A DNA stretch of 64,000 nt from Nocardiopsis ansamitocini. Lineage in GTDB: Bacteria > Actinomycetota > Actinomycetes > Streptosporangiales > Streptosporangiaceae. Shown here piece after piece: positions 1 through 17,118 of this stretch (the first letter of the stretch is position 1; the number at the start of each line of letters is the position of its first letter). The notes beneath the pieces were generated by a model. The model did no database searches. It saw only the letters and a list, made by a program, of their open reading frames with translations, and was not told where the DNA came from. The stretch lies in assembly GCF_030268225.1 (NCBI RefSeq), contig NZ_BSQG01000011.1, positions 19,751 through 83,750 of the forward strand, in the 5' to 3' direction. The position numbers and the translations under genes are program-made.

Positions 1-147
1 CATCACGCCCTGGAAGAGCATGGAGACCGCTCGTCCGACGTCGTGGAGAAAGCGGAAGATATCGCGCTGGAGGACGACCTTGACGACCCTGAGGTCGTGG
101 GAGAACCCGTAGTCCGGTGCCTGGACGGCCGTGTCCGACGATGTCAC
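1..147 (-). CDS. hypothetical protein, N-terminal fragment (gene continues past the window start); GTG start overlaps the lanKC stop codon (GTGA)
   Basis: Minus-strand frame MTSSDTAVQAPDYGFSHDLRVVKVVLQRDIFRFLHDVGRAVSMLFQGVM... has very high GC3, unlike the overlapping plus-strand ORF 43..318. The GTG sits directly on the TGA of the upstream synthetase gene. No family recognised. Confidence 0.3.
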   Translation of the reverse strand, partial: MTSSDTAVQAPDYGFSHDLRVVKVVLQRDIFRFLHDVGRAVSMLFQGVM

Positions 148-2716
148 GCGTTGCCTCCCGCAGAACTCTCGCAGCCCCGCGCGGAGAAGAAGGGCAGGAA
201 CGGCGCCCCCTGTCCGCGCGCTGTGGCCAGGGCCAGGAGTATGCCGGCGCCCCCGGTCGCCAGGTCCATCGACAAACGGATACCACGGCCGCCGGGAAAA
301 GCGACGTGGCCGCGGTAGGGCAGGGTGTAGGCGGCCAACTCGCGGGCGCGCTCCTCGACCGCCTCGGGCGCACCGCCCATTCTGGCCAGGGTGACGAGCT
401 GCCCCGCTTTGCCGAAGAACAGATCGGCCCGCACGGTCAATCGGGCCAGCGCCGAACGGCACAGGCCCGGAACGGCTTCGCGCACCCGGGCGTCCTCCCG
501 GTGGGCCAACAGGTCGCCCGCCACCAGGGCGATCCCCATGCCGCCTGCTTCCAGGTACGGCAGGGCTCGGGCCCCCTTGTCCTTGACCAGCAGGGCATCG
601 TCATCCGACGTCACGCAGTGGTCGAGGTCCCGGTGGATCGCACGGACCGCGGCGTCGAGACAGGCGGGGTCGGCGGTCTGCTCATACATACGGACGAAGA
701 AGAGCGCGATTCCCGACCACCCGCGCATGAGGCCGACGGGCAGGGCTGCGGTCCGCCCGCTGCTCGCCCGCTCCGCGCCCTCCGGGGGACCGTTCTCCAC
801 GAAGCCGGCGAGCCGGTCGGCCAGCGCCACGGCCCGCTCCCGATACCGGGCGTCCCCGTGGCTGTCCGCGAAGTGCAACAGGGTGGCACCGACCCCGGAG
901 AGGCCCGAGAAGAGGGACATGCCCCCGCTGGGAGCATCCGCGTGCCGCTCCAGCAGGTCGGCCGCCTCTTCCCCGTATCCGAGGTGGTCGAGGGCGTAGG
1001 CGAGACCGGCCACACCGTCGTAGAACCCCGGGTTGGGCCGGACCAGTCGCCGCCCCGCGTCGATCAGCCACTGTTCGTGGTCGGGGTGGCGGCCGTGGCC
1101 CGCCGTGTCCAGTGCCCAGAGGACGCCGGCCGCGCCGTGCGCGAAACCGAAGCCACCCGAGACGAACTGCTGGATGTCCCCGGGGAAGAGGCGGTCCCGA
1201 CGCTCGGGGGTCGCCGAGGCGAGAACCCCGGCGGCGATCGCCGCCGGCGACGGGGCCGCGGCGGGCGGCCACTGCCCGGAGGCGGCGGCCGTGCCTTCCG
1301 GCACCATCTCGGCTTCGATCTCGTCCGCCCACTCCGGGGGGACGGGGAAGTTGCGGCGCACGATCGCGACGAACTCCGCGGCCTTGGCCGAGTCAAGGAC
1401 CGTGATCGGACTGAACAGCATGAACACCACCAGGCGCAGGGCGGCCATTCCGTAGTCGTCGATGGCGGTCCCGCGCCGCTGCGCGACGTTGAAGCCGGGT
1501 GCGCCGAGCCCCGGCTTCCATTGGGCGTCCGCCGCGTCGAACGACTGCTCGAAGTCGATGAGCGTCACCGTGTCGTCGGCATCGACGAGCACATTGTTGA
1601 CGTGCAGGTCACCGAAGACCAGGCCGCGCTTGTGCACCTCGCCGACGATCTCCTTGAGCCGGTCCATGATCCGCAGTGCCCTGCGGGTGTAGTCGGCGAC
1701 CTCCTCGTCGTCGGGGTCCGCCTTGTTGACCCACGGGTGGAAGGCCGCACACCAGGAGTAGAGCGGGAGCCCCTCCGCGTACTCCTGCACCAGGAAGCGG
1801 TGCCCGCCCAGGGGGAAACTGTCGAGAAGGCCCGGGACGCCCGAGATCCCGTCGAGTCGGGTGAGCGCCTTCTCCTCGCGTTCCTGCCGGGCGACGGCGT
1901 CGTCGCCGTTCCCGTCCAGACCGGCATGCGGACGGGCCTCCTTCAACACGACGGTCATGCCGTCGGTGAGGCGTTCCGCGAGGTAGACGCCTCCCCCGTT
2001 GGAAAAGTGCAGCGCCTTCAGGACACGGTAGGGCTGTTGGGCCTCGCCGTTCTGCCCGGTGCGCAGGTGCGGTTTCAGGAAGTCCGGCATCTCGACCCAG
2101 GCCGGTGGGGAGAAGGCGGGTTGGCGGAGGTCGGGGACGAGGGCGCCGTCCGGGCGCCGGATCGCGGGAACCAGTTCCCCGTCCGCACCGGTGCACCGCA
2201 TCTCGGCGAACCCGCCGTAGCGAACGTAGAGGGGCCCCTGGCCCCACCGGAGGTCGCTGAGGATGTAGGGGCCCGGTTCGCCGCCGATCTTCTCGGAGAG
2301 CCCGACGAGAATCGATTCCAGTTCCTTCTCGTCACGTGGATAGATCGTGACAAGTTTCCCGCTGGATGCCCGGGGCGCATATTTGGCGGAGAAAACGAAC
2401 TGGATTCTCCGGTTCATCAGATACTTGAACGGAATTCGCCGGGCAACGCAGTACTCTCGGACCGCTTCGCAGATCTCTTCGGCGTTGTCCAGGGTTGCGG
2501 AGACGTGAATCTTCCAGCCCTGTTCCGGAAGGTCTGCGCCCTCTGGAAAGAGGTAGCGCCAGACCCCCTGATCACCGCTTACCCACCCACTGGGACAGTC
2601 AAGGCCGGAGATCGAGAACTCTCCGTCGCCGAGAAAAGCCGGGCCGCCCGTCCACCGGCGCGGGTCTTCATAGAAAAGCGGGTCCGCTTGCGTGTAGACC
2701 TCTACCCGATCGAGCA
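144..2716 (-). CDS. lanKC: class III lanthipeptide synthetase (LanKC-type: N-terminal pSer/pThr lyase, central Ser/Thr kinase, C-terminal LanC-like cyclase lacking Zn ligands)
   Basis: Kinase motifs seen: HKRGLVFGDLHVNNVLVD and LIDFEQSF. The LanC-like C-terminus has GFAHGAAGVLWAL, but the WCxG position reads RGWSGIA (no Cys) and the CHG position reads LATGGAG (no Cys/His). Loss of zinc ligands is characteristic of class III rather than class IV. Start placed at GTG 2716 (GGAGA 6 nt upstream). Upstream of that the frame has low GC3 and is not coding, so the ORF-track start at 3023 is rejected. Confidence 0.85.
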
Positions 2717-2740
2717 CGAGTGTTCTCCATTCGACAAACC

Positions 2741-2767
2741 GAAAACCCCGGCCCCGGAGCGGGGACC
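2741..2767 (-). promoter_or_regulatory. GC hairpin followed by T-tract on the minus strand about 25 nt upstream of the lanKC start (terminator/attenuator-like)
   Basis: Minus-strand reading cggtccccgctccggggccgggg then tttt. It lies between the SHOCT-domain gene and lanKC. Confidence 0.3.
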
Positions 2768-3124
2768 GATCTCTTCGGGTCGGGCACGTGAACAGTGGCC
2801 TCTTTTCAAAGAGGCGGAACGGACCGACGGGTCCTCTTGCGCATAATGCCCGCCGCAGATCCCGCGCATTATCGCCGGGCATCCGTGCGGACACCCTATT
2901 CACGTGTCCGGTGCCGCTCCAGCTCCCGGCAGCAGCCATGGCTCGGACCGGAGGTCGACCGACAGGGGGCAACCGGCCACGACGTCCCCGGAACGGTACC
3001 GGCCGGACGCTTCGGCCGGGCACACGGCGAGGAACGCTTCGCCGTGGAGCATTGCGTCGGGGACGACGACGCCGTTGCAGGGTGGCCCCGAAGGTCTGCT
3101 CCTGCGGGGCGTTCGGCGGACGGC

Positions 3125-4045
3125 TCAGAGCCGGTCGAGCAGCTCGGCCTTCTTGGCGGCGAACTCGTCGTCGGTGAGGAAACCGTCGGCGTGCAGGCGG
3201 CCCAGTCGCTCGATCTGCGCGTAGACAGCGTCCTCCTCGTCACCGTCACCGGTTCCGGGCTCCCCCGCGGGAAGGGCCTCCGGCCCGGCCCCCAACTGGC
3301 GGGCCGGTTGGGCCGTTCCGGCCCAGATGTAGGCGGTGATGGTGGCCGCCATCAGCAGTGTCGCCGCTCCCTCCCGCCCTTCCTCGCACAACAGGCAGGA
3401 GAAGTCGTGCTTGGGCTTGACCGCTTCCTTGGCCGCGAAACCGTGCTCGACCACGCGCAGGTACCCGTATTCCCACCCGTCGGAGGGCACCCATTCGGCT
3501 GCGGCCACGCGGGAGAGGGGGAACTCGCGCCGTTGTTCCTTGCGCTTGCGCGTCGTGGCCGCGGAACCGGACCACACCAGCCGCACCGACGCACCGTCGA
3601 AGGTGGCGGTTCCCTCCTCCGTCGTGATGTGCAGCGGCAGCTTGGGAACGAGGCGGGTGGCCACCTGAGCGGGGTCCGTAGCCGTTGCGTCGTCGAGGGC
3701 GTTCTCGATCGCGAAGGTGATCTGGTCGGAGTAGTACTCGGCCAACAGCTCGGTCTTCGCCGGACCGGTCAGCCGGAAGGGCTGGGCCTTCTCGTTCAGC
3801 ATCGCGCCCGCAGTGGCGTAGGGGTCGGCGTGCTCCCGCAGGTGCAGCTGAAGGACCCACCCCTTCTTCTTCCCGGCTCCTGGCCGAAAATCCACCGAGG
3901 CGATGGCCGCGATCGGCACCTCGCACTGGCCGAGCTTCTTCAACAGGGGGTCTTTGAACCACCCGGTGGCGTAGCGGATGGCGATCGACTCACTGCCAAA
4001 ACGCCAGACGGCCTGTTTCCCGCGCAATTCATCCATCGGCGCCAT
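3125..4045 (-). CDS. DUF4429-like protein with C-terminal SHOCT domain
   Basis: C-terminus GFLTDDEFAAKKAELLDRL resembles the short SHOCT oligomerisation motif; the N-terminal two-thirds resemble DUF4429. High GC3; ATG at 4045. Confidence 0.55.
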   Translation of the reverse strand: MAPMDELRGKQAVWRFGSESIAIRYATGWFKDPLLKKLGQCEVPIAAIASVDFRPGAGKKKGWVLQLHLREHADPYATAGAMLNEKAQPFRLTGPAKTELLAEYYSDQITFAIENALDDATATDPAQVATRLVPKLPLHITTEEGTATFDGASVRLVWSGSAATTRKRKEQRREFPLSRVAAAEWVPSDGWEYGYLRVVEHGFAAKEAVKPKHDFSCLLCEEGREGAATLLMAATITAYIWAGTAQPARQLGAGPEALPAGEPGTGDGDEEDAVYAQIERLGRLHADGFLTDDEFAAKKAELLDRL

Positions 4046-4165
4046 TCTAGAGGGCCACGGGGCGACGGACCGGTCCGTTCGCCGCTTCCCCGCACACCGG
4101 ACCGGCCGGCGCAGCGTCGCCGCACGCCGACCGGCAGCAGTTTCAGGGCCGGACAGACCCTCCGC

Positions 4166-4999
4166 TCATCTGGCCCATTCCGGCCGTCGGGCCACGAGGA
4201 AGGTCTCCGACGGGGCGACCGGGCGAAGCAGGAGAAGGACGAAACCGAGCGTGCCGCGGAGGTTGTGCAGCCAGCTCTCCCGATAGTCCGATGTGTAGCG
4301 CAGGATCCGGGTCCGGGCGGCCGGGTCCTGCTCGTTGAAGCCCCAGTCGACGAGACCTCGGACGCACGCCCAGAGGAAGTTGTCCCACTCCTCGGCCGTG
4401 CTCACCTGGGCGTGGACGGGCATCCATCCCGCCGCGGTGACCTGTTCGAGCACACCGTTTAGGTCGGTGTGGGGGTCCTCGTCGAGGCTGAGCGCGGCGA
4501 GGGTCTGCTCGTTCGGGGGGCGGTGCCAGAAGCTCTCCCCCAACAGGACGTAGCCGTTGGGGAGCACCTGGGCGCGGAGGTGCTTCAAGGTGCCGTCCAG
4601 GCCGCCGAAGACCTCGGTGAGTCCCACACACATCACGAGGTCGCTGGGGTCCTGGGGCGTGAACGCGCGGGCGTTGACGGCGTGTCCGCTGAACCGGTCG
4701 GCCAGACCGCGGCGTTCGGCCTCCCGGGTGGCCCGGGCGATGTGCGCCGCGGAGAGGTCCACCCCGACGCACGAGGAGCCGGGGTGCAACTCCAGTGCGC
4801 GCAGCGACCAGGCGCCCAGACCGCAACCGATGTCGAGCACGGTCGCGTCGGACTTGAGCTCGACCATGCGCAGCAGTCGGTCGATGGTGGCCCCGGACAC
4901 GGGGCCCACCACCGGATGGTCGTCACCCAACCGGTTCCAGATGGCCTCATTGTCGATCCCGGTGTAGTCCATGGCCTGCGTCCTCTCGGGGGAACCCAC
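4166..4999 (-). CDS. class I SAM-dependent methyltransferase
   Basis: Motif I VLDIGCGLGAWS. GTG start directly abuts the TGA of the upstream gene (TGAGTG), with AGGAG 7 nt upstream. Alternative ATG at 4972. Confidence 0.8.
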   Translation of the reverse strand: MGSPERTQAMDYTGIDNEAIWNRLGDDHPVVGPVSGATIDRLLRMVELKSDATVLDIGCGLGAWSLRALELHPGSSCVGVDLSAAHIARATREAERRGLADRFSGHAVNARAFTPQDPSDLVMCVGLTEVFGGLDGTLKHLRAQVLPNGYVLLGESFWHRPPNEQTLAALSLDEDPHTDLNGVLEQVTAAGWMPVHAQVSTAEEWDNFLWACVRGLVDWGFNEQDPAARTRILRYTSDYRESWLHNLRGTLGFVLLLLRPVAPSETFLVARRPEWAR

Positions 5000-6511
5000 T
5001 CATCGCTCCTGGTCTTCGTCGGTGCCGTCGACCCATCGCCGCGCGGCTGCGGCGATCGCGTCGCGGGCCGCGCGCACCTCTGCCGCCAGGGGCCGGTCCC
5101 GGTCCAGCGGTGGGCTGATCTCGGCGAGCTCGGCCCAGAGGCTGTCGGGCTCGGCCTCCTGGCCGACCAGTGCGGCGTACTGGGCGAGGCCCACCCCGAG
5201 CGATCCGATGACGAGCCAGGCGTGCCCGAGCGCCTCGGCCACGGCGTTGGCACCGTTGAGCGCCATCGGGACATGGTCCTGGTTTCCGTTGTTGCAGGGC
5301 AGGGAGGTCAGAGAGGCCGGCACGACCAACTGCCTGATCCGGGAGACGAAAGACGTCGCGCTCACCTGCACACCGGCGAGTCCGCTGCCGGCTCCGGGCC
5401 GTGGGGTGAGCATCGGGGGCAGCCCACCGTTGGTCTCGGAAGCGCACAGCAGCGCGAGCTGCCGGTCGGCCAGGTAGGCCACCTGTTGGAGGCACAGGCC
5501 CAACTGGTCGGAGCACAGACCGACCGGCATGGCATGGAAGTTGCCGCCGTGCAGGACCTCTCCCTCGTAACAGACGGGGTTGTCCGTGGTCCCGCCGGCC
5601 TCACGGACAAGGATCTCCTCTTCCGCGTCCAACCGGTCCTGCACCGCTCCGAGGACCTGGGGGGCGCACCGGAGGCTGTAGGGCTCCTGAAGCGGACGCC
5701 CCGGGCCCCGCTCGGCCCCTTCGGGAAACTGCGACCTGATCCACCGGGCCACCCGTATCTGACCGTGTTGGCCTCTGACCTCGCCGATGCCGTGGTGGTA
5801 GGCCTGCGGATCCGCTCCCAGCAGGCGCGCCATCCTGCCGGTCAGGAGGGCGGACGCGCGCACCAGACGGGAGAGTTGCCGGTGGTTGTCGATGGTGAGT
5901 GCCAGCGAGACCCCGGTGCCGTTGACGAAGGCCAGCGCCTCGCGTGCAGACCACTCGACCGGCTCGGCGCCGACCGCTTCCAGTGCGCGCTCGGCGGGCA
6001 GGCAGACCCAGGCGCCCGCGTCGTCGCGCACCCACGCCTCCCCGCTTCCGCTGAAGGCGAGCGCGGCACTGGCCAGGGGCTGGAGGTCGCCGCTCGCGCT
6101 GACCGTCCCGTCCCGGGGGATCGCCGGGGTGAAACCGCTGTTCCACAACTTGGCGAGAAGCGACCAGAACTCCGGGGAGACCGCCGAGTGGCCCAGTCGC
6201 ATCCCGGACAGGCGCAACCACACCACCAGGCGACACACGTCGGGGGGCAGGGGACTGCCCTGGGCGGTCGCCAGATGGGCGATGAGCCCGCTGCCCTGTT
6301 CCTGGGCCGATTCGGCTGCGGGGAAGGCGACCAGCGGCCCGAATCCGTTCGTGACCCCGTAGACCGGCTTCCCGTCCGCGAGCGTCTTGGCCAGGGTGGT
6401 CATCCCGCCGCGCATCCGAGCGGCGTCCTCCTCTTCGCACTCCGCGAGTTCAGCGTCCCAATCCGCAGCTCGCGCGATCGCGGCGAGATTTCGCCGGGTA
6501 CCCGTCGTCAC
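5000..6511 (-). CDS. MIO-dependent aromatic amino acid ammonia-lyase/aminomutase (HAL/PAL/TAL family)
   Basis: MIO-forming tripeptide in TVSASGDLQPLAS. Also GFGPLV, NGTGVS, QEPYSLRCAPQ, HGGNFHAMPVG and NQDHVPMALNGAN. Start assigned to GTG at 6511, overlapping the stop of the upstream adenylating-enzyme gene (GTGA). Confidence 0.85.
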   Translation of the reverse strand: MTTGTRRNLAAIARAADWDAELAECEEEDAARMRGGMTTLAKTLADGKPVYGVTNGFGPLVAFPAAESAQEQGSGLIAHLATAQGSPLPPDVCRLVVWLRLSGMRLGHSAVSPEFWSLLAKLWNSGFTPAIPRDGTVSASGDLQPLASAALAFSGSGEAWVRDDAGAWVCLPAERALEAVGAEPVEWSAREALAFVNGTGVSLALTIDNHRQLSRLVRASALLTGRMARLLGADPQAYHHGIGEVRGQHGQIRVARWIRSQFPEGAERGPGRPLQEPYSLRCAPQVLGAVQDRLDAEEEILVREAGGTTDNPVCYEGEVLHGGNFHAMPVGLCSDQLGLCLQQVAYLADRQLALLCASETNGGLPPMLTPRPGAGSGLAGVQVSATSFVSRIRQLVVPASLTSLPCNNGNQDHVPMALNGANAVAEALGHAWLVIGSLGVGLAQYAALVGQEAEPDSLWAELAEISPPLDRDRPLAAEVRAARDAIAAAARRWVDGTDEDQER

Positions 6512-7626
6512 GTTTGCACTCCCGTGTTCGAGATCGGTTGCATCTGCACCCGCCGGAGTTTGCCCGTCTCGGAGCGGTCGATCCGGTCGACGGGAACCAC
6601 CTTGCGGGGACGGCATTCCAGTTCCGCCAGGGCGGCGGCCAGGTCGAGATCGGCTCCGGTACGGCCGCCGCCGGGAACGATCAGCAGGTCGAAGTGCTCG
6701 CCGATGAGGGGGTCGGTCACCGGCGTGCAGGCCAGGTCCGCACAGGACACCGAGGACCGCAGCCGTTCCTCGATGAGTTCGAGGTCGATCCTGCGTCCAT
6801 TGACGTTGACGAGCCGGCCGCGCCGACCGGCGAAGCCGAATCTGCGTGCGTCGATGATCCGCACCCGGTCGTCCATCTCCCAGGAATCCGGTGCGCGGCC
6901 GTCCGGAAAGCGAGCCAGCCGTGGACTGCGTACAGTTAGCGGAACTTCACCCTCGGTTGTACTCTCGGGGCGGGGCAGCGCGAACTCGACGTCCGGGCAC
7001 AGCTCCCAGGGCGGGTTCCCGCCGCTCCACCTGCGGGTGGCGATGGCACCGGTCTCCGTGGAGCCGAACAGTTCCAGCAGCGAGGCGGTTTCGGGGAACT
7101 TCGCAAGCAGGTCGGCGGCGGTGGCGGGGAGCACGGACGTGCTGTGGACAACGCTGACCCGTTCGAGAGAACGAACCCAGGAGGCTCGCTGAAGCAGAAT
7201 CCGAAAGGTCCAGGGGATGGCCATGACGGCCCAGCGCCGGTGCGGTTGCGGCGGCATGGCGGCGAACTGCGGGCGGTACCAAACAGGAAGCCCGAGCTTC
7301 GCGGGGACGAGGAGGCTGACGAGTGCCCCGTAGAGATGCCGGGGCGGAGCGAACGACAGGACCGCCTCGGGTCGGTCGGGTCCGATCATGGCCGCCAGGA
7401 GCGACGCTTCCGCCCACAGTTGCTCGCGACTGCGCCGCCAGCGTCGGCGTTCTCCGGTGGTCCCCGACGTGAAGAAGTCCAGTACCGGCGGGAACCGTTT
7501 CATGACGAAGTCCTCGACCGGTTCGTCCAGTTCGTCCCAGCGCACCGTCCAGGGGCGTTCGGTGAACTCGGGCGCCTGGAAGTCGCCGGCCAACAAGTCC
7601 GCCGGCGAGAGTCGGTCGTACGTCAC
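6508..7626 (-). CDS. short adenylate-forming enzyme (AMP-binding/ANL superfamily, PaaK-like size)
   Basis: FFTSGTTGERRRW (A3 core), GSTETG (A5-like), ETGKL (A10 Lys). Only about 372 aa. Start ambiguous: GTG 7626 (GGAGG 8 nt upstream, overlaps the uORF stop) or GTG 7662. Confidence 0.75.
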   Translation of the reverse strand: MTYDRLSPADLLAGDFQAPEFTERPWTVRWDELDEPVEDFVMKRFPPVLDFFTSGTTGERRRWRRSREQLWAEASLLAAMIGPDRPEAVLSFAPPRHLYGALVSLLVPAKLGLPVWYRPQFAAMPPQPHRRWAVMAIPWTFRILLQRASWVRSLERVSVVHSTSVLPATAADLLAKFPETASLLELFGSTETGAIATRRWSGGNPPWELCPDVEFALPRPESTTEGEVPLTVRSPRLARFPDGRAPDSWEMDDRVRIIDARRFGFAGRRGRLVNVNGRRIDLELIEERLRSSVSCADLACTPVTDPLIGEHFDLLIVPGGGRTGADLDLAAALAELECRPRKVVPVDRIDRSETGKLRRVQMQPISNTGVQT

Positions 7627-7703
7627 GCGACCGACCTCCGGTGCGCACGGCCCTTCGCGCACAATCGCGGAACCACCGTCTCCCCTCGGTCGAGGCAGGT
7701 CAT
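7623..7703 (-). CDS. 26-aa upstream ORF MTCLDRGETVVPRLCAKGRAHRRSVA, translationally coupled to the adenylating-enzyme gene
   Basis: ATG preceded by AAGGAGAG at 5 nt spacing. Its TGA overlaps GTG 7626 of the downstream gene (GTGA). No homology recognised. Confidence 0.3.
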   Translation of the reverse strand: MTCLDRGETVVPRLCAKGRAHRRSVA

Positions 7704-7877
7704 GGACTCTCCTTTGTCATATCCGTCGTGCAGTGGTGCCGAGGCGAAAAGCGCAGGCACGGGAGGGGCCACACCCTTCACCGGCCCGCCCGGCGGGAGG
7801 ACGCCGCACCCGCCGAGGTGTCCCGCCAGCGGGACGGTCCCGGATGCGGCCCGGAAGCGATCCCCTGCCGTTCGGCC

Positions 7878-8870
7878 TCAAGCCGAGGTGGAACCCACCC
7901 GCTTCTTCAGCGGTTCCCACCAGCTCCGGTTGTCCACGTACCAGCGCACGGTGTCGGCCAACCCCTGCCGGAAGGGCACCTGGTCCCGGTAGCCCAACTC
8001 GGTGCGGATCCTCGTGTGGTCGAGGGAGTAGCGGTGGTCGTGTCCCTTGCGGTCCTCGACGAAGCGCACCATCGACCAGTCGTGCCCCAGCTCCTTTAGG
8101 ACCAGTGCCGTCACCTGCTCGTTGGTCATCTCCACGGCGCTGCCGATGTTGTAGATCCGCCCCGGGTCACCGTGTTGCGCGACCAGGGCGATACCGGCGC
8201 AGTGGTCGTCGACGTGCACCCACTCGCGCACGTTGCTGCCGTCCCCGTAAAGGGGGACCGTCTCGCCGTCCAGGAGGTTCGTGACGAAGAGCGGGATCAG
8301 CTTCTCGGGGAACTGGTAGGGCCCGTAGTTGTTGCAGCACCGGGTGATGCACACCGCGAGACCGTGCGTCTTGTAGAAGGCACGGGCGATGAGATCGGCC
8401 GCGCCCTTCGTTGCCGCGTAGGGGGAGTTGGGCTCCAGCAGGCCCTGCTCGTCCCAGGACTCCGACGTGATCGTCCCGTAGACCTCGTCGGTCGACACGA
8501 GGACGAATTTGTCGACCTTCGCCCTCAACGCGCTGTCGAGAAGGGCGAACGTCCCGTTCACATTGCTGCGCAGGAACTCCGAACCGTCAGCGATGGAGCG
8601 GTCGACATGCGTCTCGGCCGCGAAGTGGACGACGAGCGAGACACCGGCCATCACCTCGTCGAGCAGAGCGGTGTCACAGATGTCCCCGGAGACGAATCTG
8701 AGCCGGGGGTCCTCCATTACGCGTTCCAGGCTCCCCAATGTTCCGGCGTAGGTCAGCTTGTCCAGGACCACGACCTCGGAGGCGTCCACCCCCGGATACG
8801 CGCCCGCGAGAACGCGTCGGACGAAATTCGATCCGACAAACCCAGCGCCGCCAGTGACCAGCATTCTCAT
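7878..8870 (-). CDS. rmlB: dTDP-glucose 4,6-dehydratase
   Basis: MRMLVTGGAGFVGSNFV Rossmann N-terminus, YAATKGAAD (YxxxK), LVSTDEVYG. Typical RmlB length of 330 aa. Confidence 0.9.
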   Translation of the reverse strand: MRMLVTGGAGFVGSNFVRRVLAGAYPGVDASEVVVLDKLTYAGTLGSLERVMEDPRLRFVSGDICDTALLDEVMAGVSLVVHFAAETHVDRSIADGSEFLRSNVNGTFALLDSALRAKVDKFVLVSTDEVYGTITSESWDEQGLLEPNSPYAATKGAADLIARAFYKTHGLAVCITRCCNNYGPYQFPEKLIPLFVTNLLDGETVPLYGDGSNVREWVHVDDHCAGIALVAQHGDPGRIYNIGSAVEMTNEQVTALVLKELGHDWSMVRFVEDRKGHDHRYSLDHTRIRTELGYRDQVPFRQGLADTVRWYVDNRSWWEPLKKRVGSTSA

Positions 8871-8882
8871 GTGCTCTCACCT

Positions 8883-9764
8883 CTACCGTGTGCCATTCGA
8901 GCGCCGAGCCTTTTCCATCACGTATCGACCGTACGGCGAGTCCTTCATCTCTTCTCCCAACCTGTGACACGCCTCCGCGTCGATGAATCCCATACGCAAC
9001 GCGATCTCTTCGAGGCAGGCGATGCGCTCGCCTTGTCCCTTCAGCACCGAGTGGACATAGCAGGCGGACTCGAAGAGGGACTCCTCCGTTCCCGCGTCGA
9101 ACCACGCGACACTGTCTTCCAGCGTCACGAAACGCGCCCTTTCCTGGGCAAGGTAAGCCCGGTTGACATCGGTGATCTCAAGTTCGCCGCGCGCCGACGG
9201 ACGAACCTCCTTGGCCACCTCGACCGCATCGGCGCCGTAGAAATAGAGCCCCGTCACCGCGTAGTCGGAATCGGGGCGTTCCGGTTTTTCCTCGATCGAG
9301 ATCAACCTCCCGGACCGGTCGAACCCCCCGACCCCGTAGCGGCACGGATCAAAGACCTTGTGTCCGAAGAGGACGCATCCGTCCACCGTGCGTGCGGCCT
9401 CCTGGACGGCTTCCTCGAATCCGGGGCCGTGGAACAGGTTGTCGCCCAGTACCAGCGCACTGGGTCGGCCGTCGATATGACGTTCGCCGATGAGCAGAGC
9501 CTCCGCGATTCCTCGCGGCTCTTTTTGCTCCCGGTAACCGATATCGAGACCGAGCCGCTTTCCGTCTCCGAACACCCGTTGCAGAGGGGAAATCGATTCG
9601 GGGGCGGAGATCACCAGAATTTCACGGATTCCAGCGAGCATGAGAACCGCGATCGGATAGTAGATCATCGGCTTGTCGTAGATGGGAAACAACTGCTTAG
9701 ACGCCGCACTCGTACTCGGCCGGAGACGGCTCCCGTTTCCTCCCGCCAGAACAATACCCTTCAC
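8883..9764 (-). CDS. rmlA: glucose-1-phosphate thymidylyltransferase
   Basis: VKGIVLAGGNGSRLRP at the GTG start, with AGGAG 5 nt upstream. Also EKPERPDSDYAVTGLYFY. The longer N-terminal extension in the ORF track is rejected. Confidence 0.9.
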   Translation of the reverse strand: MKGIVLAGGNGSRLRPSTSAASKQLFPIYDKPMIYYPIAVLMLAGIREILVISAPESISPLQRVFGDGKRLGLDIGYREQKEPRGIAEALLIGERHIDGRPSALVLGDNLFHGPGFEEAVQEAARTVDGCVLFGHKVFDPCRYGVGGFDRSGRLISIEEKPERPDSDYAVTGLYFYGADAVEVAKEVRPSARGELEITDVNRAYLAQERARFVTLEDSVAWFDAGTEESLFESACYVHSVLKGQGERIACLEEIALRMGFIDAEACHRLGEEMKDSPYGRYVMEKARRSNGTR

Positions 9765-10037
9765 AGAAACTCCTGGTCGGACAGAGCGGTGGGTTTCACC
9801 GAACCGTACACGGGGTCTCTCGGGTTTTGTCCAGACTCGGCACCGTTCCTGCACGATGGTATGTTCACCGAGCCAGGGAGCTATACGCCCCCACCCCTTC
9901 CCGACCCACGCGAAAAACCTGGACCGGCAGCCCGAACTCCCCAAGTTAAAGGCGGCAACAACGCCGACGGCACTCAATGGCCGACCTTTTCATTGCGGAT
10001 GACTTTCTCCGAACGCGTACCAGGAAAAGGAAATACC

Positions 10038-11318
10038 GTGCGCATCCTCATAGCGACATACGCAGACAGGTCCTACTTCTTCAGCATGGTGCCACTGGCA
10101 TGGGCGCTGCGGGCCGCGGGTCACGAGGTGCGAGTGGCCAGCCAGCCGGAGCTGACCGACGCGGCCGCAAGCACCGGCCTGACCGTACTCCCGGTCGGCG
10201 AGGACCACATGTCCAGGAAACTGCTGCACTCGCCGGCGACCCAGCAGTACCAGGACTACCAGGAATCCGCCTTCAACCTGGCCGAGGACCGGCCGGAGGA
10301 GCTGACGTGGGACCGCCTCAAGAAGGCGCAACTCCGGTTCGTCGTCTGGTGGTGGAAGGTGATCAACGAACCGATGCTGAAAGAACTCGTGGCCTTCTGT
10401 CGGGAGTGGCGGCCGGATCTGGTGATCTGGGAGCCGATGACCTTCGCCGGGGCAGTGGCCGCCGAGGCGTGCGGTGCCGCCCACGCCCGCTTCCTGTGGA
10501 GCTACGACCTGGTCGGCCAGAATCGCCGGAACTACCTGGAGGCGATGGCGGAGCAGCCCGCGCACGAGCATGCCGACCCGCTGCGCGAATGGCTCACCTC
10601 CCGCGCCGAGCGCTACGACGTCCCCTTCTCCGAGGACCTGATCAGAGGGCAGTTCTCGATCGGCCCCATTCCCGCCTCCCTCAGGGCCGGGGAGCCCGTG
10701 GTCGAGGAGAAGGTGGGCGTGCGCCATGTCCCCTACGAGGGGGCAACCGTCCTGCCCGGATGGCTGCGCACCCCACTCGAGCAGCGACGCGTGCTCGTGG
10801 ACTGGCGGGCGCTGCGGGCCGGTGACCCCGAACGCAGCGAGGCGGTCCTGCGGGAGGTGCTGGCCGGCGCGATCGGCCTGGACGCGGAAGTGCTGCTGGT
10901 CCTTCCGCCGGCGGACCGGGAGACACTCCCCCCCTTCCCCGACCGTGTGCGCGTCATCGAAGAGGGCATCTCCCACATCGTGCTTCCCACGTGCTCCGCG
11001 GTGGTCCACCCCGGAGGGTTCGACACGTACTGCACGTCCTTGCTGCACGGGGTGCCGCAGGTGATCGTCCCCGAGCCGGACCTGTTCGACGCGACGCCAC
11101 TGGCGAGTGCCCTGGCCGACGCCTCCGCGGGCAGCGTGCTCCCCTGGGCGGGGTGCACCGCCGGGGGCGTCCGGGAGCGGCTGGACGAGGTGCTCGGTTC
11201 CGCGGAGATAGCCGCGGGCGTCCGCCGACTCCAGCAGGAGGTACTGGCCATGCCCACACCGGACCTTCTCGTGGCGGAACTGGAACGCCTCACCGTCAAG
11301 CACCGGAAAGAGGACTGA
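10038..11318 (+). CDS. GT1-family glycosyltransferase (antibiotic/macrolide-type)
   Basis: VRILIATYADRSYFFSMVPLAWALRAAGHEVRVAS N-terminal domain and HPGGFDTYCTSLLHGVPQVIVP C-terminal nucleotide-sugar domain. GTG at 10038 with AAAGGA RBS. The remaining upstream part of ORF 8172..11318 is antisense shadow of rmlA/rmlB. Confidence 0.85.
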   Translation: MRILIATYADRSYFFSMVPLAWALRAAGHEVRVASQPELTDAAASTGLTVLPVGEDHMSRKLLHSPATQQYQDYQESAFNLAEDRPEELTWDRLKKAQLRFVVWWWKVINEPMLKELVAFCREWRPDLVIWEPMTFAGAVAAEACGAAHARFLWSYDLVGQNRRNYLEAMAEQPAHEHADPLREWLTSRAERYDVPFSEDLIRGQFSIGPIPASLRAGEPVVEEKVGVRHVPYEGATVLPGWLRTPLEQRRVLVDWRALRAGDPERSEAVLREVLAGAIGLDAEVLLVLPPADRETLPPFPDRVRVIEEGISHIVLPTCSAVVHPGGFDTYCTSLLHGVPQVIVPEPDLFDATPLASALADASAGSVLPWAGCTAGGVRERLDEVLGSAEIAAGVRRLQQEVLAMPTPDLLVAELERLTVKHRKED

Positions 11319-11351
11319 GCCGACCGCGGGCACCCGCTCCGGGGCGAGACT

Positions 11352-12599
11352 TCAGCCGGTGAGGTCGTGGAGGAGGGGGACGAGGTCGGCGGGGGCGGGC
11401 ATGTCCTGCATTTCCCGGCGCAGGCGGTCGGCCGACCGGGCGAACCCCGGCTCCCCGAGCAGCCGTCGTACCCGCTCCCCCACCGTCTCCCCCGTGGCGT
11501 CGGCGGAGTCCAGCGCGAACCCCGCGCCTGCCCGCTCCACCTCCCGGGCCAACAGCGGAGCGTCGAACAACCGGTCCCTTGGGGCGATGACCTGGGGAAC
11601 CCCGTGGGTGAGCGAGGTGAACACGGTCCCCGGCCCGCCCTGGTCGACCATGGCGTGGCAGGTGGGGGTGAGTGCGTGGAGGGGGGCGTAGTCGACGAGG
11701 CGGGTGTTGGGGGGGATGGGTCCGAGGGTGTGGTGGTGGGCGGTGGGGATGGTGGCGATGATTTCGGCGTCGAGGTCGGCGAGTCCGTTGAGGATGTCGG
11801 TGACGGAGACGGTGTAGCCGCCGAAGCGTTCGGAGGCGCTGGTGCCCAGGGTGAGGCAGATGCGGGGTCGGTGGGGTGGGGTGCGCAGCCAGTGGGGGAC
11901 GACGGCGCGCCCGTTGTAGGGGACGTAGCGCATCGGCAGGTACCTGGCGTCGGACAACGGATCGATCCGCAGCGAGGGAGGAACCTGGTCGATGGTGGCC
12001 TGGCCGTGGACGAGTTCTTCGTCATAATCGAGGCCGTAGCGTGCGGCGAGGGCGGTGAGCCAGGCGGCTAGGGGGTCTTCTTGCTGGTCGGGGGGCTGCT
12101 CGCCCATCCGCCGCAGGTACAACCCCCGCATCCGGGAGAACAGGTCGAGGCTCCAGAGGAAGCGGACGTGGGCGGCCCCGCAGGCCCTGGCCGCGATCGC
12201 CCCCGCGAACGTCGTGGGCTCCCAGATCACCAGGTCCGGACGCCACTGGCGGCAGAACGCCACCAGGTCGCCCAGCATCGGCTCGTTGACCATGCGCCAC
12301 CACCAGGTCACCATCTGGCGATAGCCATCCCTCATGTAATCCCAGGTGAGAACCTCGTCGCGGTCTTCACCCATGTCGAAGACCGCGGTCCGGCCGCCGG
12401 CCGCGCGTTTGACCATCCTCGGAAAAGAGTGGTTGCGGCCCACGGGCACGAAGGGCAGTCCGGCACCGGTGACCACACCTTCGAGTTCGGGCTGACTGGC
12501 CACCCGCACCTCGTGCCCGGCCGCCCGCAACGCCCACGCCACGGGAACCATCCCCAGAAAATGCGTCCGCTCGGCCTGGGCCGCGATCACCACGCGCAC
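11352..12599 (-). CDS. GT1-family glycosyltransferase, paralog of 10038..11318, convergent
   Basis: VRVVIAAQAERTHFLGMVPVAWALRAAGHEVRVAS and HAMVDQGGPGTVFTSLTHGVPQVIAP. GTG 12599 with GAGGTGG RBS. Confidence 0.85.
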   Translation of the reverse strand: MRVVIAAQAERTHFLGMVPVAWALRAAGHEVRVASQPELEGVVTGAGLPFVPVGRNHSFPRMVKRAAGGRTAVFDMGEDRDEVLTWDYMRDGYRQMVTWWWRMVNEPMLGDLVAFCRQWRPDLVIWEPTTFAGAIAARACGAAHVRFLWSLDLFSRMRGLYLRRMGEQPPDQQEDPLAAWLTALAARYGLDYDEELVHGQATIDQVPPSLRIDPLSDARYLPMRYVPYNGRAVVPHWLRTPPHRPRICLTLGTSASERFGGYTVSVTDILNGLADLDAEIIATIPTAHHHTLGPIPPNTRLVDYAPLHALTPTCHAMVDQGGPGTVFTSLTHGVPQVIAPRDRLFDAPLLAREVERAGAGFALDSADATGETVGERVRRLLGEPGFARSADRLRREMQDMPAPADLVPLLHDLTG

Positions 12600-12660
12600 G
12601 AATCCCCACCTCTCCCGCACCTGCGCACCGCTTCCCCCGGCGGCTGCGCCCGGCACACGA

Positions 12661-13659
12661 TCATCGCGCGACTGCGCGGGCTTCCCGGCTGTGTTCCGCC
12701 TGCGCCTCGGCCGCACGGATCGTGCTGCCGGTGTACTCCAGGAAGACGTCGTCGAGGGACGGCGGCGTCACCCTGATGGAGCGGACCGGGAACTTCAGGT
12801 CGGCGAACAGGCGCGGAACGAATTCCTCGCCCTCGGCGACCGTGAAGACGACGTTCTCCCCCTCGATCTGCGGAGCGATCCCGAACCGGTCCAGCAGCAC
12901 CGCACCGAGGGCGTCGGCCTCGGCCGAGACCATCTCCACCCGGTCCTTGCCGACGCTCTCCTTGAGCGCCCGGGGGCTGTCCAGCACCGCGATGGAGCCT
13001 TCGTCGATGATGGCGATCCGCTGACAGTTCTCGGCTTCCTCCAGGTAATGCGTCGTCATGAAAACGGTCACGCCGTCGCGCTCGTTGATCTCGCGGATGC
13101 CTTCCCAGATGGCCTGTCTGGTCTGCGGGTCGAGACCGATCGTCGGCTCGTCGAGGAAGAGCACGCGGGGCGAGTGGAGCAGGCCGCGGGCGATCTCCAG
13201 GCGTCGGCGCAGGCCACCGGAATAGGTCCCCACGATCCGGTCCTTGTGGCTGCCCAGGCCGACGGTCTCGATCGCGCGGTCGATCCGCTCCTCCACCAGG
13301 TGCTTGGGAACGGCGTAGATCTCGGCGTGGAACCGGAGGTTCTGCCGTCCGGTCAGGTAGCGGTCGAGGGTCTGCTCCTGGAAGACCAGCCCGATGGTGC
13401 GGCGGACCTCCTGGCGTTGGTGCACGACGTCGTAACCCCCGACGGAAGCGGATCCGCCCGTCGGAGTGAGGAGGGTGCACAGCATCTTGATGACCGTGGA
13501 CTTGCCCGCACCGTTGGGGCCGAGAAAACCGAAGATCTCGCCCGGCTCGACCTCGAAGTCGACGCCCTTGACCGCCTCGACCTCGTCGTAGCGCTTGTGG
13601 AGGCCGCGCGCGGACACGGCAGGGGCGGCGTTTCCTCCGGGCACACCCGAGTGGGTCAC
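12661..13659 (-). CDS. ABC transporter ATP-binding protein (DrrA-like); no cognate permease in the window
   Basis: Walker A GPNGAGKST, signature YSGGLRRRLEIA, Walker B VLFLDEPT. GTG start with GAGGAGG RBS. Confidence 0.85.
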   Translation of the reverse strand: MTHSGVPGGNAAPAVSARGLHKRYDEVEAVKGVDFEVEPGEIFGFLGPNGAGKSTVIKMLCTLLTPTGGSASVGGYDVVHQRQEVRRTIGLVFQEQTLDRYLTGRQNLRFHAEIYAVPKHLVEERIDRAIETVGLGSHKDRIVGTYSGGLRRRLEIARGLLHSPRVLFLDEPTIGLDPQTRQAIWEGIREINERDGVTVFMTTHYLEEAENCQRIAIIDEGSIAVLDSPRALKESVGKDRVEMVSAEADALGAVLLDRFGIAPQIEGENVVFTVAEGEEFVPRLFADLKFPVRSIRVTPPSLDDVFLEYTGSTIRAAEAQAEHSREARAVAR

Positions 13660-13734
13660 CGGGCCAACCTCCTCAAGAGTCGGGCAACAGCTCCGGCCTC
13701 CGGCCGTTTATCGACGTGACCGGCCGTTGCGTGG

Positions 13735-14301: not shown

Positions 14302-14348
14302 GTCTGGAAACCCTCGACTACGAAATATTGACTGGCACCAAAGGAGTC

Positions 14349-14378
14349 GGCGTGCGCCGCGCAACCGCGGCGCACGCC
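14349..14378. terminator. perfect 13-bp inverted repeat (GGCGTGCGCCGCG-caac-CGCGGCGCACGCC), 10 nt downstream of the precursor gene stop
   Basis: Read directly. Sits between the precursor peptide and the GNAT gene, like the attenuator hairpins common after RiPP structural genes. Confidence 0.5.
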
Positions 14379-14387
14379 GGTGACCGA

Positions 14388-14489
14388 TCAACCGCAGTTG
14401 AAGTAACTGGCCCCACTGTTGGCCAGAAAAACCTGGTCGGACTCGATTTCCAACTCCTGAAGGGAGAGGATGTCGGAAAGCGTCATCAT
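14388..14489 (-). CDS. lanA1: class III lanthipeptide precursor peptide candidate (33 aa): MMTLSDILSLQELEIESDQVFLANSGASYFNCG
   Basis: Not in the ORF track (below its size cutoff). AAAGAGGTGG Shine-Dalgarno immediately upstream. The leader carries an ILELQ-like motif (DILSLQELEIE). The core carries exactly one Ser-x-x-Ser-x-x-x-Cys motif (SGASYFNC), the labionin/lanthionine-forming pattern of class III substrates. Confidence 0.6.
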   Translation of the reverse strand: MMTLSDILSLQELEIESDQVFLANSGASYFNCG

Positions 14490-16814: not shown

Positions 16815-16934
16815 ATGGCACTCTCGGACGTCCTGCTTCTCCAGGGAATGGAGATCGAGACGGCGGGCAACGATGTCCCCCTTCTCGGAAGTGGTTTGAG
16901 CATTACCGGCTGCACCGTACTGCAGGCCGCATAG
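16815..16934 (+). CDS. lanA2: class III lanthipeptide precursor peptide candidate (39 aa): MALSDVLLLQGMEIETAGNDVPLLGSGLSITGCTVLQAA
   Basis: Not in the ORF track. GAGGAGGTG RBS 10 nt upstream. Leader LSDVLLLQGMEIET parallels the other precursor (LSDILSLQELEIES). Core has a single S-x-x-S-x-x-x-C motif (SGLSITGC). TAG stop. Confidence 0.65.
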   Translation: MALSDVLLLQGMEIETAGNDVPLLGSGLSITGCTVLQAA

Positions 16935-17081: not shown

Positions 17082-17118
17082 GTTGCGTATGCGGGCCCCT
17101 GCCGCGTACGGCTGTGCC

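What the first reader, a model, noticed from the sequence alone, without database searches (positions are those of the whole stretch)
144..2716. Synthetase has the class III signature (zinc ligands lost) and a compositionally atypical N-terminal lyase domain
The LanC-like domain keeps GFAHGAAG, but the conserved Cys-containing WCxG and CHG positions read RGWSGIA and LATGGAG. That is the class III (labionin-capable) pattern rather than class IV (LanL).

The first ~450 nt of the gene (about 2250-2716) have visibly lower third-position GC (many GAA, TAT, AAA, ATT, GTT codons) than every other gene in the window. This hints at recent acquisition or recombination of the lyase-domain segment.
Basis: seen in the sequence. 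Interest (0 to 1): 0.55.

Follow-up and report, generated by a model that had tools for sequence, protein, structure and literature searches.

The report
Class III lanthipeptide synthetase, AT-rich start
This is an ordinary, intact class III lanthipeptide synthetase gene of Nocardiopsis ansamitocini whose first ~410 bases use unusually many A/T-ending codons, a real oddity that also occurs in about 30% of related synthetase genes I sampled and shows no sign of being a swapped-in domain.

Summary
The gene (window 144-2717, minus strand, 857 aa) is already named 'class III lanthionine synthetase LanKC [Nocardiopsis ansamitocini]' by NCBI. It scores 961 bits on the class III model (cut-off 575) and 368 bits on the class IV model (cut-off 650).

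Using the ThurKC structure paper, the NisC Cys284/Cys330/His331 positions correspond to E723, F767 and F768. They are not RGWSG or LATGGAG, and GFAHG is not the catalytic-His motif.

The GC3 dip is real:
- Codons 1-150 have GC3 0.71, against 0.89 for the rest (Fisher p 2e-7, change point at codon 136).
- Only the rmlA-like gene in the window is as low.

Recent acquisition of the lyase segment is not supported:
- All three domains have the same nearest relatives at 62-65% identity.
- First- and second-position GC matches the orthologues.
- No closer donor was found.

The same 5'-anchored A/T3-rich tract occurs in 23 of 75 other actinobacterial LanKC genes and in 0 of 123 neighbouring long genes. 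Its length varies from 91 to 247 codons. This suggests a promoter-anchored, possibly regulatory feature; its mechanism is unproven.

Two candidate precursor peptides lie at 14388-14489 and 16815-16934.

The parts
144..2717 (-). lanKC gene, 857 aa, class III lanthipeptide synthetase (GTG start at 2717, TGA stop at 144-146)
   Evidence: NCBIfam NF038151 scores 961 bits. The protein is 100% identical to NCBI LanKC of Nocardiopsis ansamitocini.
2055..2603 (-). Phospho-Ser/Thr lyase domain (RamC_N, residues 39-221). The eight residues equivalent to the ThurKC catalytic set are present: K69, H71, K98, K112, K121, D155, R166, R198.
   Evidence: Pfam PF25816 E 6e-76. Residue mapping from the alignment to 8sao plus PMC10604976. 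All eight are invariant in A1.
1278..2042 (-). Ser/Thr kinase-like domain (about residues 226-480), with K259, D370, N375 and D388 conserved
   Evidence: Pfam Pkinase/APH hits. PDB 7wj6 CurKC kinase domain, E 3e-56. Invariant columns.
198..1250 (-). Metal-independent LanC-like cyclase domain (about residues 490-840). Positions equivalent to the NisC zinc ligands are E723 (nt 549-551) and F767/F768 (nt 414-419). The His212 equivalent is R665 (nt 723-725).
   Evidence: The hhalign registers place no Cys or His on the ligand positions in any register.
2310..2717 (-). A/T3-rich tract: codons 1-136, A/T-ending codons 31% against 11% downstream, GC 0.59
2718..2900 (-). Low-GC (0.62) promoter-proximal non-coding stretch, continuous with the tract. 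It includes a terminator-like hairpin at 2748-2769 and short palindromes.
14388..14489 (-). Candidate class III precursor peptide MMTLSDILSLQELEIESDQVFLANSGASYFNCG. It has an ILSLQ leader motif, an S-x-x-S-x-x-x-C core and an upstream AAGAGG.
   Evidence: The only NCBIfam hits are class III lanthipeptide families, and they fall below the cut-off.
16815..16934 (+). Candidate class III precursor peptide MALSDVLLLQGMEIETAGNDVPLLGSGLSITGCTVLQAA. It has a VLLLQ leader motif, an S-x-x-S-x-x-x-C core and an upstream GGAGG.
1..147 (-). Start of the next gene. Its GTG overlaps the lanKC stop (GTGA). It runs off the window. In the orthologous loci this position holds an ABC-2 type permease.
   Evidence: There was no Pfam hit for the 49-aa fragment.
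3125..4045 (-). DUF4429 + SHOCT gene. It occupies the place of the KAS III gene that precedes lanKC in the two nearest orthologous clusters.

Best explanation
WHAT IT IS. The gene encodes a complete, vertically coherent class III lanthipeptide synthetase (LanKC).

HOW IT SHOULD WORK.
- The kinase domain phosphorylates Ser/Thr in a precursor peptide.
- The N-terminal OspF/SpvC-like lyase domain eliminates the phosphate to give dehydro-amino acids.
- The zinc-free LanC-like domain closes lanthionine or labionin rings.
- The likely substrates are the two S-x-x-S-x-x-x-C peptides encoded 12-14 kb away in the same sugar-rich cluster.

THE COMPOSITIONAL ODDITY.
- It is a lower-GC tract of about 600 nt (window about 2310-2900) that runs from the promoter-proximal spacer into the first 136 codons.
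- It changes only synonymous sites.
- It is not a scar of domain swapping.
- It is one instance of a 5'-anchored, variable-length A/T3-rich tract that recurs specifically in LanKC genes that sit behind a low-GC upstream region.

MOST LIKELY ROLE (INFERRED). The tract acts on expression. It may be an AT-rich landing pad for an Lsr2-type nucleoid silencer, a run of rare codons that throttles synthesis of the enzyme, or both.

SHOWN AND INFERRED.
- Shown: class, domain integrity, reality of the dip, lack of mosaicism, and recurrence in the family.
- Inferred: the regulatory role and its mechanism.
For: CLASS AND INTEGRITY. establish the class and the conserved catalytic residues.

DIP AND ITS EXTENT..

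NO MOSAIC.
- Same nearest relatives and the same identity in every segment.
- No closer N-terminal hit.
- DNA similarity to the same orthologues runs through the whole 5' CDS and stops 17 nt upstream of the start codon.
- GC1/GC2 are unchanged.

RECURRENCE.
- 21 of 78 LanKC genes have an A/T3 excess above 0.1 in codons 1-150. Any other 150-codon segment shows this in only 0-3 genes.
- The dips fall in at least 7 identity clusters, and some have close relatives without a dip.
- With starts called independently of GC3, 23/75 LanKC genes have the dip against 0/123 other long genes in the same loci. The single flagged 'other' gene was a mis-started LanKC.
- With annotated starts, 0/32 neighbouring genes have it.

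NATURE OF THE TRACT.
- Tracts are always 5'-anchored and end between codons 91 and 247.
- The A/T3 positions are not shared site by site.
- All amino acids are affected, with A- and T-ending codons alike.
- All dip loci have upstream-150-nt GC of 0.68 or less. The correlation of dip size with upstream GC is rho -0.45.

PRECEDENTS.
- Rare-codon control in this gene family: most Streptomyces amf clusters carry a TTA codon in ramR or ramC (PMC4255298).
- Lsr2 binds AT-rich DNA and represses biosynthetic clusters, including lanthipeptide clusters (PMC12667793).

SUBSTRATES.
Against: - No experiment or binding-site evidence links the tract to Lsr2 or to translation rate.
- The window gene has no TTA codon.
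- Many LanKC genes with a low-GC upstream region have no dip, so promoter proximity alone does not explain it.
- The dip loci are dominated by Pseudonocardiaceae, so the count of independent origins (about 7) is modest.
- The two nearest orthologues lack a clear dip, so the tract arose or was lost recently relative to the gene's age. That is also what a recombination event would produce.
- Only 64 kb of this genome was available as the background for composition.
Confidence: 0.6

Rival explanations
1. Recent homologous recombination or partial gene replacement. The event that replaced the upstream KAS III gene with the DUF4429-SHOCT gene and a 407-nt spacer also brought in the first ~136 codons of lanKC from a related cluster in a lower-GC3 background. 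This is essentially the reader's idea.
For: - Synteny breaks exactly upstream of lanKC relative to both nearest orthologous clusters.
- Those orthologues have no dip (L081, 0.89 against 0.90) or only a slight one (L082, 0.82 against 0.88).
- The composition shift is sharp, with a change point at codon 136 and LLR 15.9.
Against: - The N-terminal segment has the same nearest relatives at the same distance as the rest. A donor would therefore have to be as far from the P0002 clade as the recipient is.
- No closer protein or DNA match exists for the segment.
- Homology to the orthologues continues to 17 nt upstream of the start, so the visible breakpoint lies outside the CDS.
- GC1/GC2 are unchanged.
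- The DUF4429 gene itself has native GC3 of 0.87.
- The same kind of tract in 23/75 other LanKC genes would require many parallel events, all with the same polarity.
Confidence: 0.2
2. Neutral local decay. After lanKC became promoter-proximal, whatever keeps GC3 high (selection on codon usage or GC-biased gene conversion) was locally relaxed. The universal GC-to-AT mutation bias then eroded GC3 near the new junction. The tract has no function.
For: - Only synonymous sites are affected, and A- and T-ending codons are equally enriched.
- A/T3 positions are not conserved between lineages.
- Tract length varies.
- Dips are gained and lost among close relatives.
Against: - It does not explain why only LanKC genes show it: 0/123 and 0/32 for other long genes in the same loci, some of which must also be first in their operons.
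- It does not explain why the tract never passes the lyase-kinase boundary at about codon 247.
Confidence: 0.15
3. Chance fluctuation or normal within-genome variance of GC3.
For: One other gene in the window, the rmlA-like gene, is equally low.
Against: - Fisher p 1.9e-7 within the gene.
- About 4 SD below the window's other genes.
- The codon-usage model trained on the window prefers to start the gene at codon 101.
- The pattern recurs in homologues.
Confidence: 0.02

Closest known systems
Class III lanthipeptide synthetases (LanKC): ThurKC (PDB 8SAO), LabKC, RamC/AmfT, CurKC, AciKC
   Same: - Same lyase-kinase-cyclase order.
- All eight ThurKC lyase catalytic residues are conserved, as are the kinase catalytic residues.
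- The cyclase lacks the Cys-Cys-His zinc site. Phe767 corresponds to ThurKC Phe770.
- The candidate precursors have an ILELQ-like leader motif and an S-x-x-S-x-x-x-C core.
   Different: - Only 62-65% identical to its nearest database relatives, and far from any characterised enzyme (best PDB match E 1.7e-107).
- ThurKC Asp771 is Phe768 here, Ser726 is Glu723, and the Arg610-Asp667 salt bridge is replaced by Phe603/Arg665.
- The precursors lie 12-14 kb away rather than adjacent.
- The gene sits in a cluster rich in deoxysugar, glycosyltransferase, aromatic ammonia-lyase, AMP-binding, methyltransferase and GNAT genes.
Class IV lanthipeptide synthetases (LanL: VenL, SgbL)
   Same: Same three-domain layout, with homologous lyase and kinase domains.
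   Different: LanL keeps Asp/His and the Cys-Cys-His zinc ligands (SgbL D642, H710, C769, C814, H815). This protein has S601, R665, E723, F767 and F768 at those positions. It scores below the class IV cut-off (368 against 650 bits).
NAI-112 (glycosylated class III lanthipeptide) and lipolanthines (N-acylated class III-type peptides)
   Same: A class III synthetase is combined with a glycosyltransferase (NAI-112) or with acyl-activating and acyltransferase genes (lipolanthines) in one cluster (PMC8341899).
   Different: - This cluster has at least two EryCIII-like glycosyltransferases, dTDP-sugar genes and a sugar aminotransferase.
- It also has an aromatic amino-acid lyase/mutase, an AMP-binding enzyme and a GNAT.
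- No product is known, and I tested nothing about these genes beyond Pfam hits.
bldA/TTA-codon control of amf/ram (SapB) clusters; Lsr2 silencing of AT-rich DNA in actinomycetes
   Same: Both are known ways in which rare A/T-rich codons or AT-rich tracts set the expression of developmental or specialised-metabolite genes in high-GC actinomycetes. TTA codons occur in 19 of 78 LanKC genes sampled, mostly in the first 210 codons.
   Different: The window gene has no TTA codon. No Lsr2 binding data exist for it. The tract is a diffuse composition shift, not a defined site.

Membership tests
Class III lanthipeptide synthetase (LanKC) | Three domains in the order lyase (RamC_N), Ser/Thr kinase, LanC-like cyclase | tested here: met
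   Pfam PF25816 (residues 39-221), PF00069 and PF05147. NCBIfam NF038151 aligns residues 6-831 to model positions 2-833 of 833.
Class III lanthipeptide synthetase (LanKC) | Score above the curated equivalog cut-off for class III and below that for class IV | tested here: met
   961 bits against a cut-off of 575 for class III. 368 bits against a cut-off of 650 for class IV.
Class III lanthipeptide synthetase (LanKC) | No Cys-Cys-His zinc ligands at the positions of NisC C284/C330/H331 | tested here: met
   E723, F767 and F768, from the alignment to ThurKC 8sao plus the structural equivalences in PMC10604976. The spacing agrees with SgbL. No register of the profile alignment to LtnM1/M2 puts Cys or His there.
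Class III lanthipeptide synthetase (LanKC) | Lyase catalytic residues (ThurKC K65, H67, K94, K108, K117, D152, R163, R191) | tested here: met
   K69, H71, K98, K112, K121, D155, R166 and R198. All are invariant in 27 homologues.
Class III lanthipeptide synthetase (LanKC) | Cognate precursor with a hydrophobic ILELQ-type leader motif and a Ser/Ser/Cys (S-x-x-S-x-x-x-C) core | tested here: met
   Two small ORFs with ribosome-binding sites at 14388-14489 (-) and 16815-16934 (+). Their only NCBIfam hits are class III lanthipeptide families, below the cut-off. This is in silico evidence only.
Class III lanthipeptide synthetase (LanKC) | Metal-independent formation of lanthionine or labionin rings | not testable with these tools
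   Needs enzyme assays and mass spectrometry or NMR of the product.
Class IV lanthipeptide synthetase (LanL) | Conserved catalytic His and Cys-Cys-His zinc site in the cyclase domain | tested here: not met
   R665, E723, F767 and F768. NF038150 scores below its cut-off.
Mosaic (recombinant) gene with a foreign lyase segment | The segment has different nearest relatives, or a different distance to them, than the rest of the gene | tested here: not met
   Identity to P0002/P0003/P0004 is 64/63/63% in residues 1-150, 64/65/61% in the kinase and 62/61/59% in the cyclase. The ranking is the same by BLAST.
Mosaic (recombinant) gene with a foreign lyase segment | A closer donor sequence exists for the segment alone | tested here: not met
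   The N-terminal 169-aa search found at best 56% identity, in fragments. blastn against 87 loci matched the same orthologues best, at 70-74%. The databases hold no close relative of this gene, so the test has limited power.
Mosaic (recombinant) gene with a foreign lyase segment | Composition shift with a sharp boundary, next to a synteny break | tested here: met
   Change point at codon 136. The upstream KAS III gene is replaced by DUF4429-SHOCT plus a 407-nt spacer.

The most novel reading that the evidence does not exclude
A 5'-anchored tract of A/T-ending codons, 270-740 nt long and confined to the lyase-domain coding region, is a selected expression-control feature of a sizeable subset of actinobacterial class III lanthipeptide synthetase genes. 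It could be a nucleation site for Lsr2-type silencing or a rare-codon throttle related to the known TTA/bldA control of ramC. It is gained when the gene sits directly behind its promoter, as here.
Probability: 0.3. Interest if true: 0.5.

Novelty: new member of a known kind. Interest (0 to 1): 0.3.

Why it matters
The class assignment adds nothing new, because the protein is already annotated as LanKC.

Three things are useful:
- The corrected map of the zinc-ligand-equivalent residues (E723, F767, F768, R665) gives the right targets for mutagenesis.
- The enzyme can be linked to two candidate precursors in a glycosylation-rich cluster. That cluster may make a decorated class III lanthipeptide.
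- The A/T3-rich 5' tract turned out to be family-specific and recurrent (23/75 LanKC genes against 0/123 neighbours). If it controls expression, recoding it would be a simple way to raise yields when such clusters are expressed. It would also be a defined case of intragenic composition acting as a regulatory signal in high-GC bacteria.

Tried and rejected
- FRAME ERROR. The coordinates 144-2716 gave 12 stops. The start is at 2717.
- RFAM. A search of 1-18000 at E up to 0.1 found nothing.
- PROMOTER SCAN. The sigma-70 consensus scan of 2000-3400 found no site. This is not informative for actinomycete promoters.
- EXACT-PROTEIN LOOK-UP. The look-up of the window protein in the contig index found nothing.
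- ZINC-DEPENDENT CYCLASES IN PLASMIDS. tblastn of the cyclase domain against plasmids returned only class III genes. I therefore fetched LtnM1/M2 from pMRC01 by accession.
- PROFILE ALIGNMENT TO LtnM1/M2. The global hhalign failed. The local one gave three mutually shifted registers. Sequence alone cannot fix the register in this repeat fold, so I used the published structural superposition.
- FIRST CONTROL FOR 5' DIPS. The first control in neighbouring genes was swamped by mis-started ORFs reading out of frame. I repeated it with GC1/GC2 frame filters and with annotated starts.
- SHARED A/T3 POSITIONS. I tested whether A/T3 positions are shared between lineages, which would indicate a conserved nucleotide element. 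They are not.
- TTA CODONS. The window gene has none.
- DUF4429 NEXT TO LanKC ELSEWHERE. I looked for this as a possible donor arrangement. There was one weak hit, downstream of the gene in L003, and nothing upstream.
Full report
WHAT IS AT THE COORDINATES

The long minus-strand ORF ends at 144 and can be read back to 3023. Homologues and the NCBI model begin at the GTG at 2717, which is preceded by GGAGAA.

The 857-aa product is 100% identical to an NCBI protein named 'class III lanthionine synthetase LanKC [Nocardiopsis ansamitocini]'. The window is high-GC (0.69) actinomycete DNA.

CLASS

- Pfam finds RamC_N (residues 39-221, E 6e-76), a protein-kinase region and LANC_like.
- NCBIfam gives 961 bits on the class III equivalog (cut-off 575) and 368 bits on the class IV one (cut-off 650).
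- The best solved structures are all class III enzymes: 9wop, ThurKC 8sao, SalKC, and the PneKC-type 8w7a.

The class III call is therefore correct, and it was already public.

The cyclase fold is a seven-fold alpha/alpha toroid with a Gly-rich motif in every repeat, so motif matching by eye is risky. A profile alignment of 27 class III cyclase domains to the zinc-dependent LtnM1/LtnM2 domains gave three different registers with low probability.

I used the published superposition of ThurKC on NisC instead (PMC10604976):

| NisC | ThurKC | This protein |
|---|---|---|
| Cys284 | Ser726 | Glu723 (YLEAGG) |
| Cys330 | Phe770 | Phe767 (DLFFGKAG) |
| His331 | Asp771 | Phe768 (DLFFGKAG) |
| His212 | Asp667 | Arg665 (RGWSG) |
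| Asp141 | Ser608 | Ser601 |

- The paper's numbering equals the 8sao_B chain index plus 3. This is checked by five residues in the phmmer alignment.
- I verified the codons.
- The spacing 58/44 between these positions matches the 59/45 of class IV SgbL (His710, Cys769, Cys814/His815; PMC8341899).

- RGWSG is the His212 repeat, not WCxG.
- LATGGAG is the last repeat, not CHG.
- GFAHG lies in repeat 1, and its His527 is not conserved in the family.

The conclusion that there is no zinc site holds in every register. The stated correspondences do not.

All eight lyase residues shown to matter in ThurKC are present (K69, H71, K98, K112, K121, D155, R166, R198). The kinase catalytic residues are invariant. 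The enzyme looks functional.

THE GC3 DIP IS REAL

- In 50-codon windows GC3 is 0.68-0.72 over codons 1-150 and 0.82-0.96 afterwards.
- A/T-ending codons are 43/150 against 77/707 (Fisher p 1.9e-7). A two-segment model puts the change at codon 136, about nt 2310 (31% against 11%).
- All amino acids contribute, and A- and T-endings are equal (21 against 22).
- Against 150-codon windows of the other genes I called in the window (mean 0.89, SD 0.042), the segment is about 4 SD low.
- Only the rmlA-like gene (8883-9761, GC3 0.72-0.74) and one spurious ORF call are comparable.
- A codon-usage model trained on the window prefers to start the gene at codon 101.
- At DNA level the low-GC patch runs from about 2310 to 2900 (GC 0.59 in the CDS part, 0.62 in the first 180 nt upstream). 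The distal spacer and the rest of the gene are 0.72-0.74.

IS IT A FOREIGN OR RECOMBINED SEGMENT?

I tested this in five ways.
1. Per-segment identity to the 40 best homologues. Residues 1-150, 151-225, kinase and cyclase all have P0002, P0003 and P0004 as nearest relatives, at 63-64, 65-67, 61-65 and 59-62%. The N-terminal part groups with that clade at least as clearly as the other domains do.
2. A database search with the N-terminal 169 aa alone gave nothing better than 56%.
3. blastn of 2250-3124 against all fetched loci matched the same orthologues best (70-74%). The homology runs through the whole 5' CDS and stops 17 nt upstream of the start codon.
4. GC1/GC2 of codons 1-150 (0.65/0.45) equal those of the orthologues (0.61/0.45 and 0.59/0.43). 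Only synonymous sites are shifted.
5. The DNA of the two nearest orthologues shows no dip (L081, Nocardiopsis sp. ATB16-24, 0.89 against 0.90) or only a slight one (L082, 0.82 against 0.88).

In both relatives the order is rmlA, rmlB, AMP-binding, aromatic lyase, methyltransferase, KAS III, lanKC, ABC-2 permease, with 56 nt before lanKC. In the window KAS III is replaced by a DUF4429-SHOCT gene and a 407-nt spacer.

A rearrangement did therefore happen next to the gene. The detectable breakpoint lies outside the CDS. A donor would also have to be exactly as diverged from the P0002 clade as the rest of the gene is. I rate recombination at about 0.2.

THE SAME TRACT RECURS IN THE FAMILY

I fetched 80 LanKC loci from one genome per species and threaded codons onto a protein alignment.

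| Test | LanKC genes | Comparison |
|---|---|---|
| A/T3 excess above 0.1 in codons 1-150 | 21 of 78 | 0-3 of 78 for any other 150-codon segment |
| Starts called from GC1-GC2 only, independent of GC3 | 23 of 75 | 0 of 123 other long genes in the same loci; Fisher p 3e-10 |
| PGAP-annotated starts in four plasmid loci | three Streptomyces near 0; Amycolatopsis +0.08 | 0 of 32 neighbours above 0.07 |

- The genes with dips fall in at least seven clusters at 60% identity: many Amycolatopsis and other Pseudonocardiaceae, Actinomadura, Actinoallomurus, one Streptomyces, and the window gene. Some have close relatives without a dip.
- In the control, the single 'other' gene flagged was a mis-started LanKC.
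- The tract always starts at the 5' end. It ends anywhere between codons 91 and 247 and never passes the lyase-kinase boundary.
- A/T3 positions are not shared between lineages, so it is a regional composition effect, not a conserved nucleotide element.
- All dip loci have a low-GC upstream region (0.68 or less). Dip size correlates with upstream GC (rho -0.45), though many low-GC-upstream loci have no dip.

HOW IT MOST LIKELY WORKS

The enzyme mechanism follows the established class III scheme: kinase, then lyase, then metal-independent cyclase (PMC10604976, PMC8341899). The likely substrates are two small ORFs with ribosome-binding sites:
- 14388-14489 (-): MMTLSDILSLQELEIESDQVFLANSGASYFNCG
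- 16815-16934 (+): MALSDVLLLQGMEIETAGNDVPLLGSGLSITGCTVLQAA

Both carry an ILELQ-like hydrophobic leader motif and an S-x-x-S-x-x-x-C core. Their only family hits are class III lanthipeptide models, below the cut-off.

For the tract, the best-supported reading is a promoter-anchored feature under some form of selection on DNA or mRNA. There are two precedents in these organisms:
- Lsr2 binds AT-rich DNA and represses biosynthetic clusters (PMC12667793).
- Rare-codon control exists in amf/ram clusters, which carry TTA in ramR or ramC (PMC4255298).

In my sample 19 of 78 LanKC genes contain TTA, and 15 of the 25 TTA codons lie in the first 210 codons (binomial 1.5e-4). The window gene has none.

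This step is inference; nothing here measures binding or translation. Neutral decay after the gene became promoter-proximal is a live alternative, but it does not explain the restriction to LanKC genes.

COMPARISON AND NOVELTY

The protein is a member of the class III LanKC family on every testable criterion, and it is not class IV. It is 62-65% identical to its nearest database relatives and sits in an uncharacterised, sugar-rich cluster. The cluster contains:
- two EryCIII-like glycosyltransferases, rmlA/rmlB and a DegT aminotransferase;
- an aromatic amino-acid lyase, an AMP-binding enzyme and a methyltransferase;
- a GNAT and an ABC transporter.

It recalls NAI-112 (glycosylated) and the lipolanthines (acylated).

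I file it as a new member of a known kind. The finding as written is mostly ordinary. The family-wide 5' tract is the only unexpected result, and it is a modest one.

Noticed in passing
window 14388-14489 (-) and 16815-16934 (+): Two small ORFs with ribosome-binding sites look like class III precursor peptides. Both have an ILSLQ/VLLLQ leader motif and an S-x-x-S-x-x-x-C core. They sit in low-GC patches 12-14 kb from lanKC rather than next to it.
   Followed up: partly
window 1-18700: The cluster around lanKC is conserved in order with Nocardiopsis sp. ATB16-24 (L081) and a metagenome contig (L082). It contains a methyltransferase, an aromatic amino-acid lyase, an AMP-binding enzyme, rmlB and rmlA, two EryCIII-like glycosyltransferases, an ABC ATPase, a GNAT, a DegT aminotransferase, an alpha/beta hydrolase and TetR. 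This suggests a glycosylated and perhaps acylated class III lanthipeptide.
   Followed up: partly
window 3125-4045 (-) and 2718-3124: A DUF4429 + SHOCT gene and a 407-nt spacer occupy the place where both orthologous clusters have a KAS III gene 56 nt upstream of lanKC. This is a lineage-specific rearrangement right next to the composition anomaly.
   Followed up: partly
window 8883-9761 (-): The rmlA-like glucose-1-phosphate thymidylyltransferase gene has GC3 of 0.72-0.74 over its whole length, as low as the lanKC 5' tract. In the orthologous cluster L081 both rmlA and rmlB have GC3 0.77, so low GC3 in the sugar genes persists across old divergence.
   Followed up: partly
window 2748-2769 (-): A terminator-like GC-rich hairpin followed by GGTTTTCGGTTTG lies about 20 nt upstream of the lanKC ribosome-binding site. 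It could terminate or attenuate read-through from the upstream gene.
   Followed up: no
window 2781-2795, 2896-2910, 2498-2510; 2843-2872: Three copies of an ACGTGAA(C/T)-type motif are present. Two form a 15-nt inverted repeat 100 nt apart in the spacer, and one lies inside the CDS. There is also an ATAATGC...GCATTAT palindrome. These may be operator sites, or they may be chance.
   Followed up: no
loci L003-L076 (LanKC genes of other actinomycetes): TTA codons, rare in high-GC actinomycetes, occur in 19 of 78 LanKC genes. 15 of the 25 TTA codons lie in the first 210 codons. This is consistent with the published note that amf clusters carry TTA in ramR or ramC.
   Followed up: partly
window 144-147: The lanKC stop overlaps the GTG start of the next gene (GTGA). 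That gene is an ABC-2 permease in the orthologous loci and runs off the window, which indicates translational coupling.
   Followed up: partly
window 39737-40549 (+): My codon-usage gene caller produced a weak ORF here (score 17) with GC3 0.73. It is probably a false call opposite a real minus-strand gene (39158-40630). It is the only other low-GC3 'gene' in the window.
   Followed up: no
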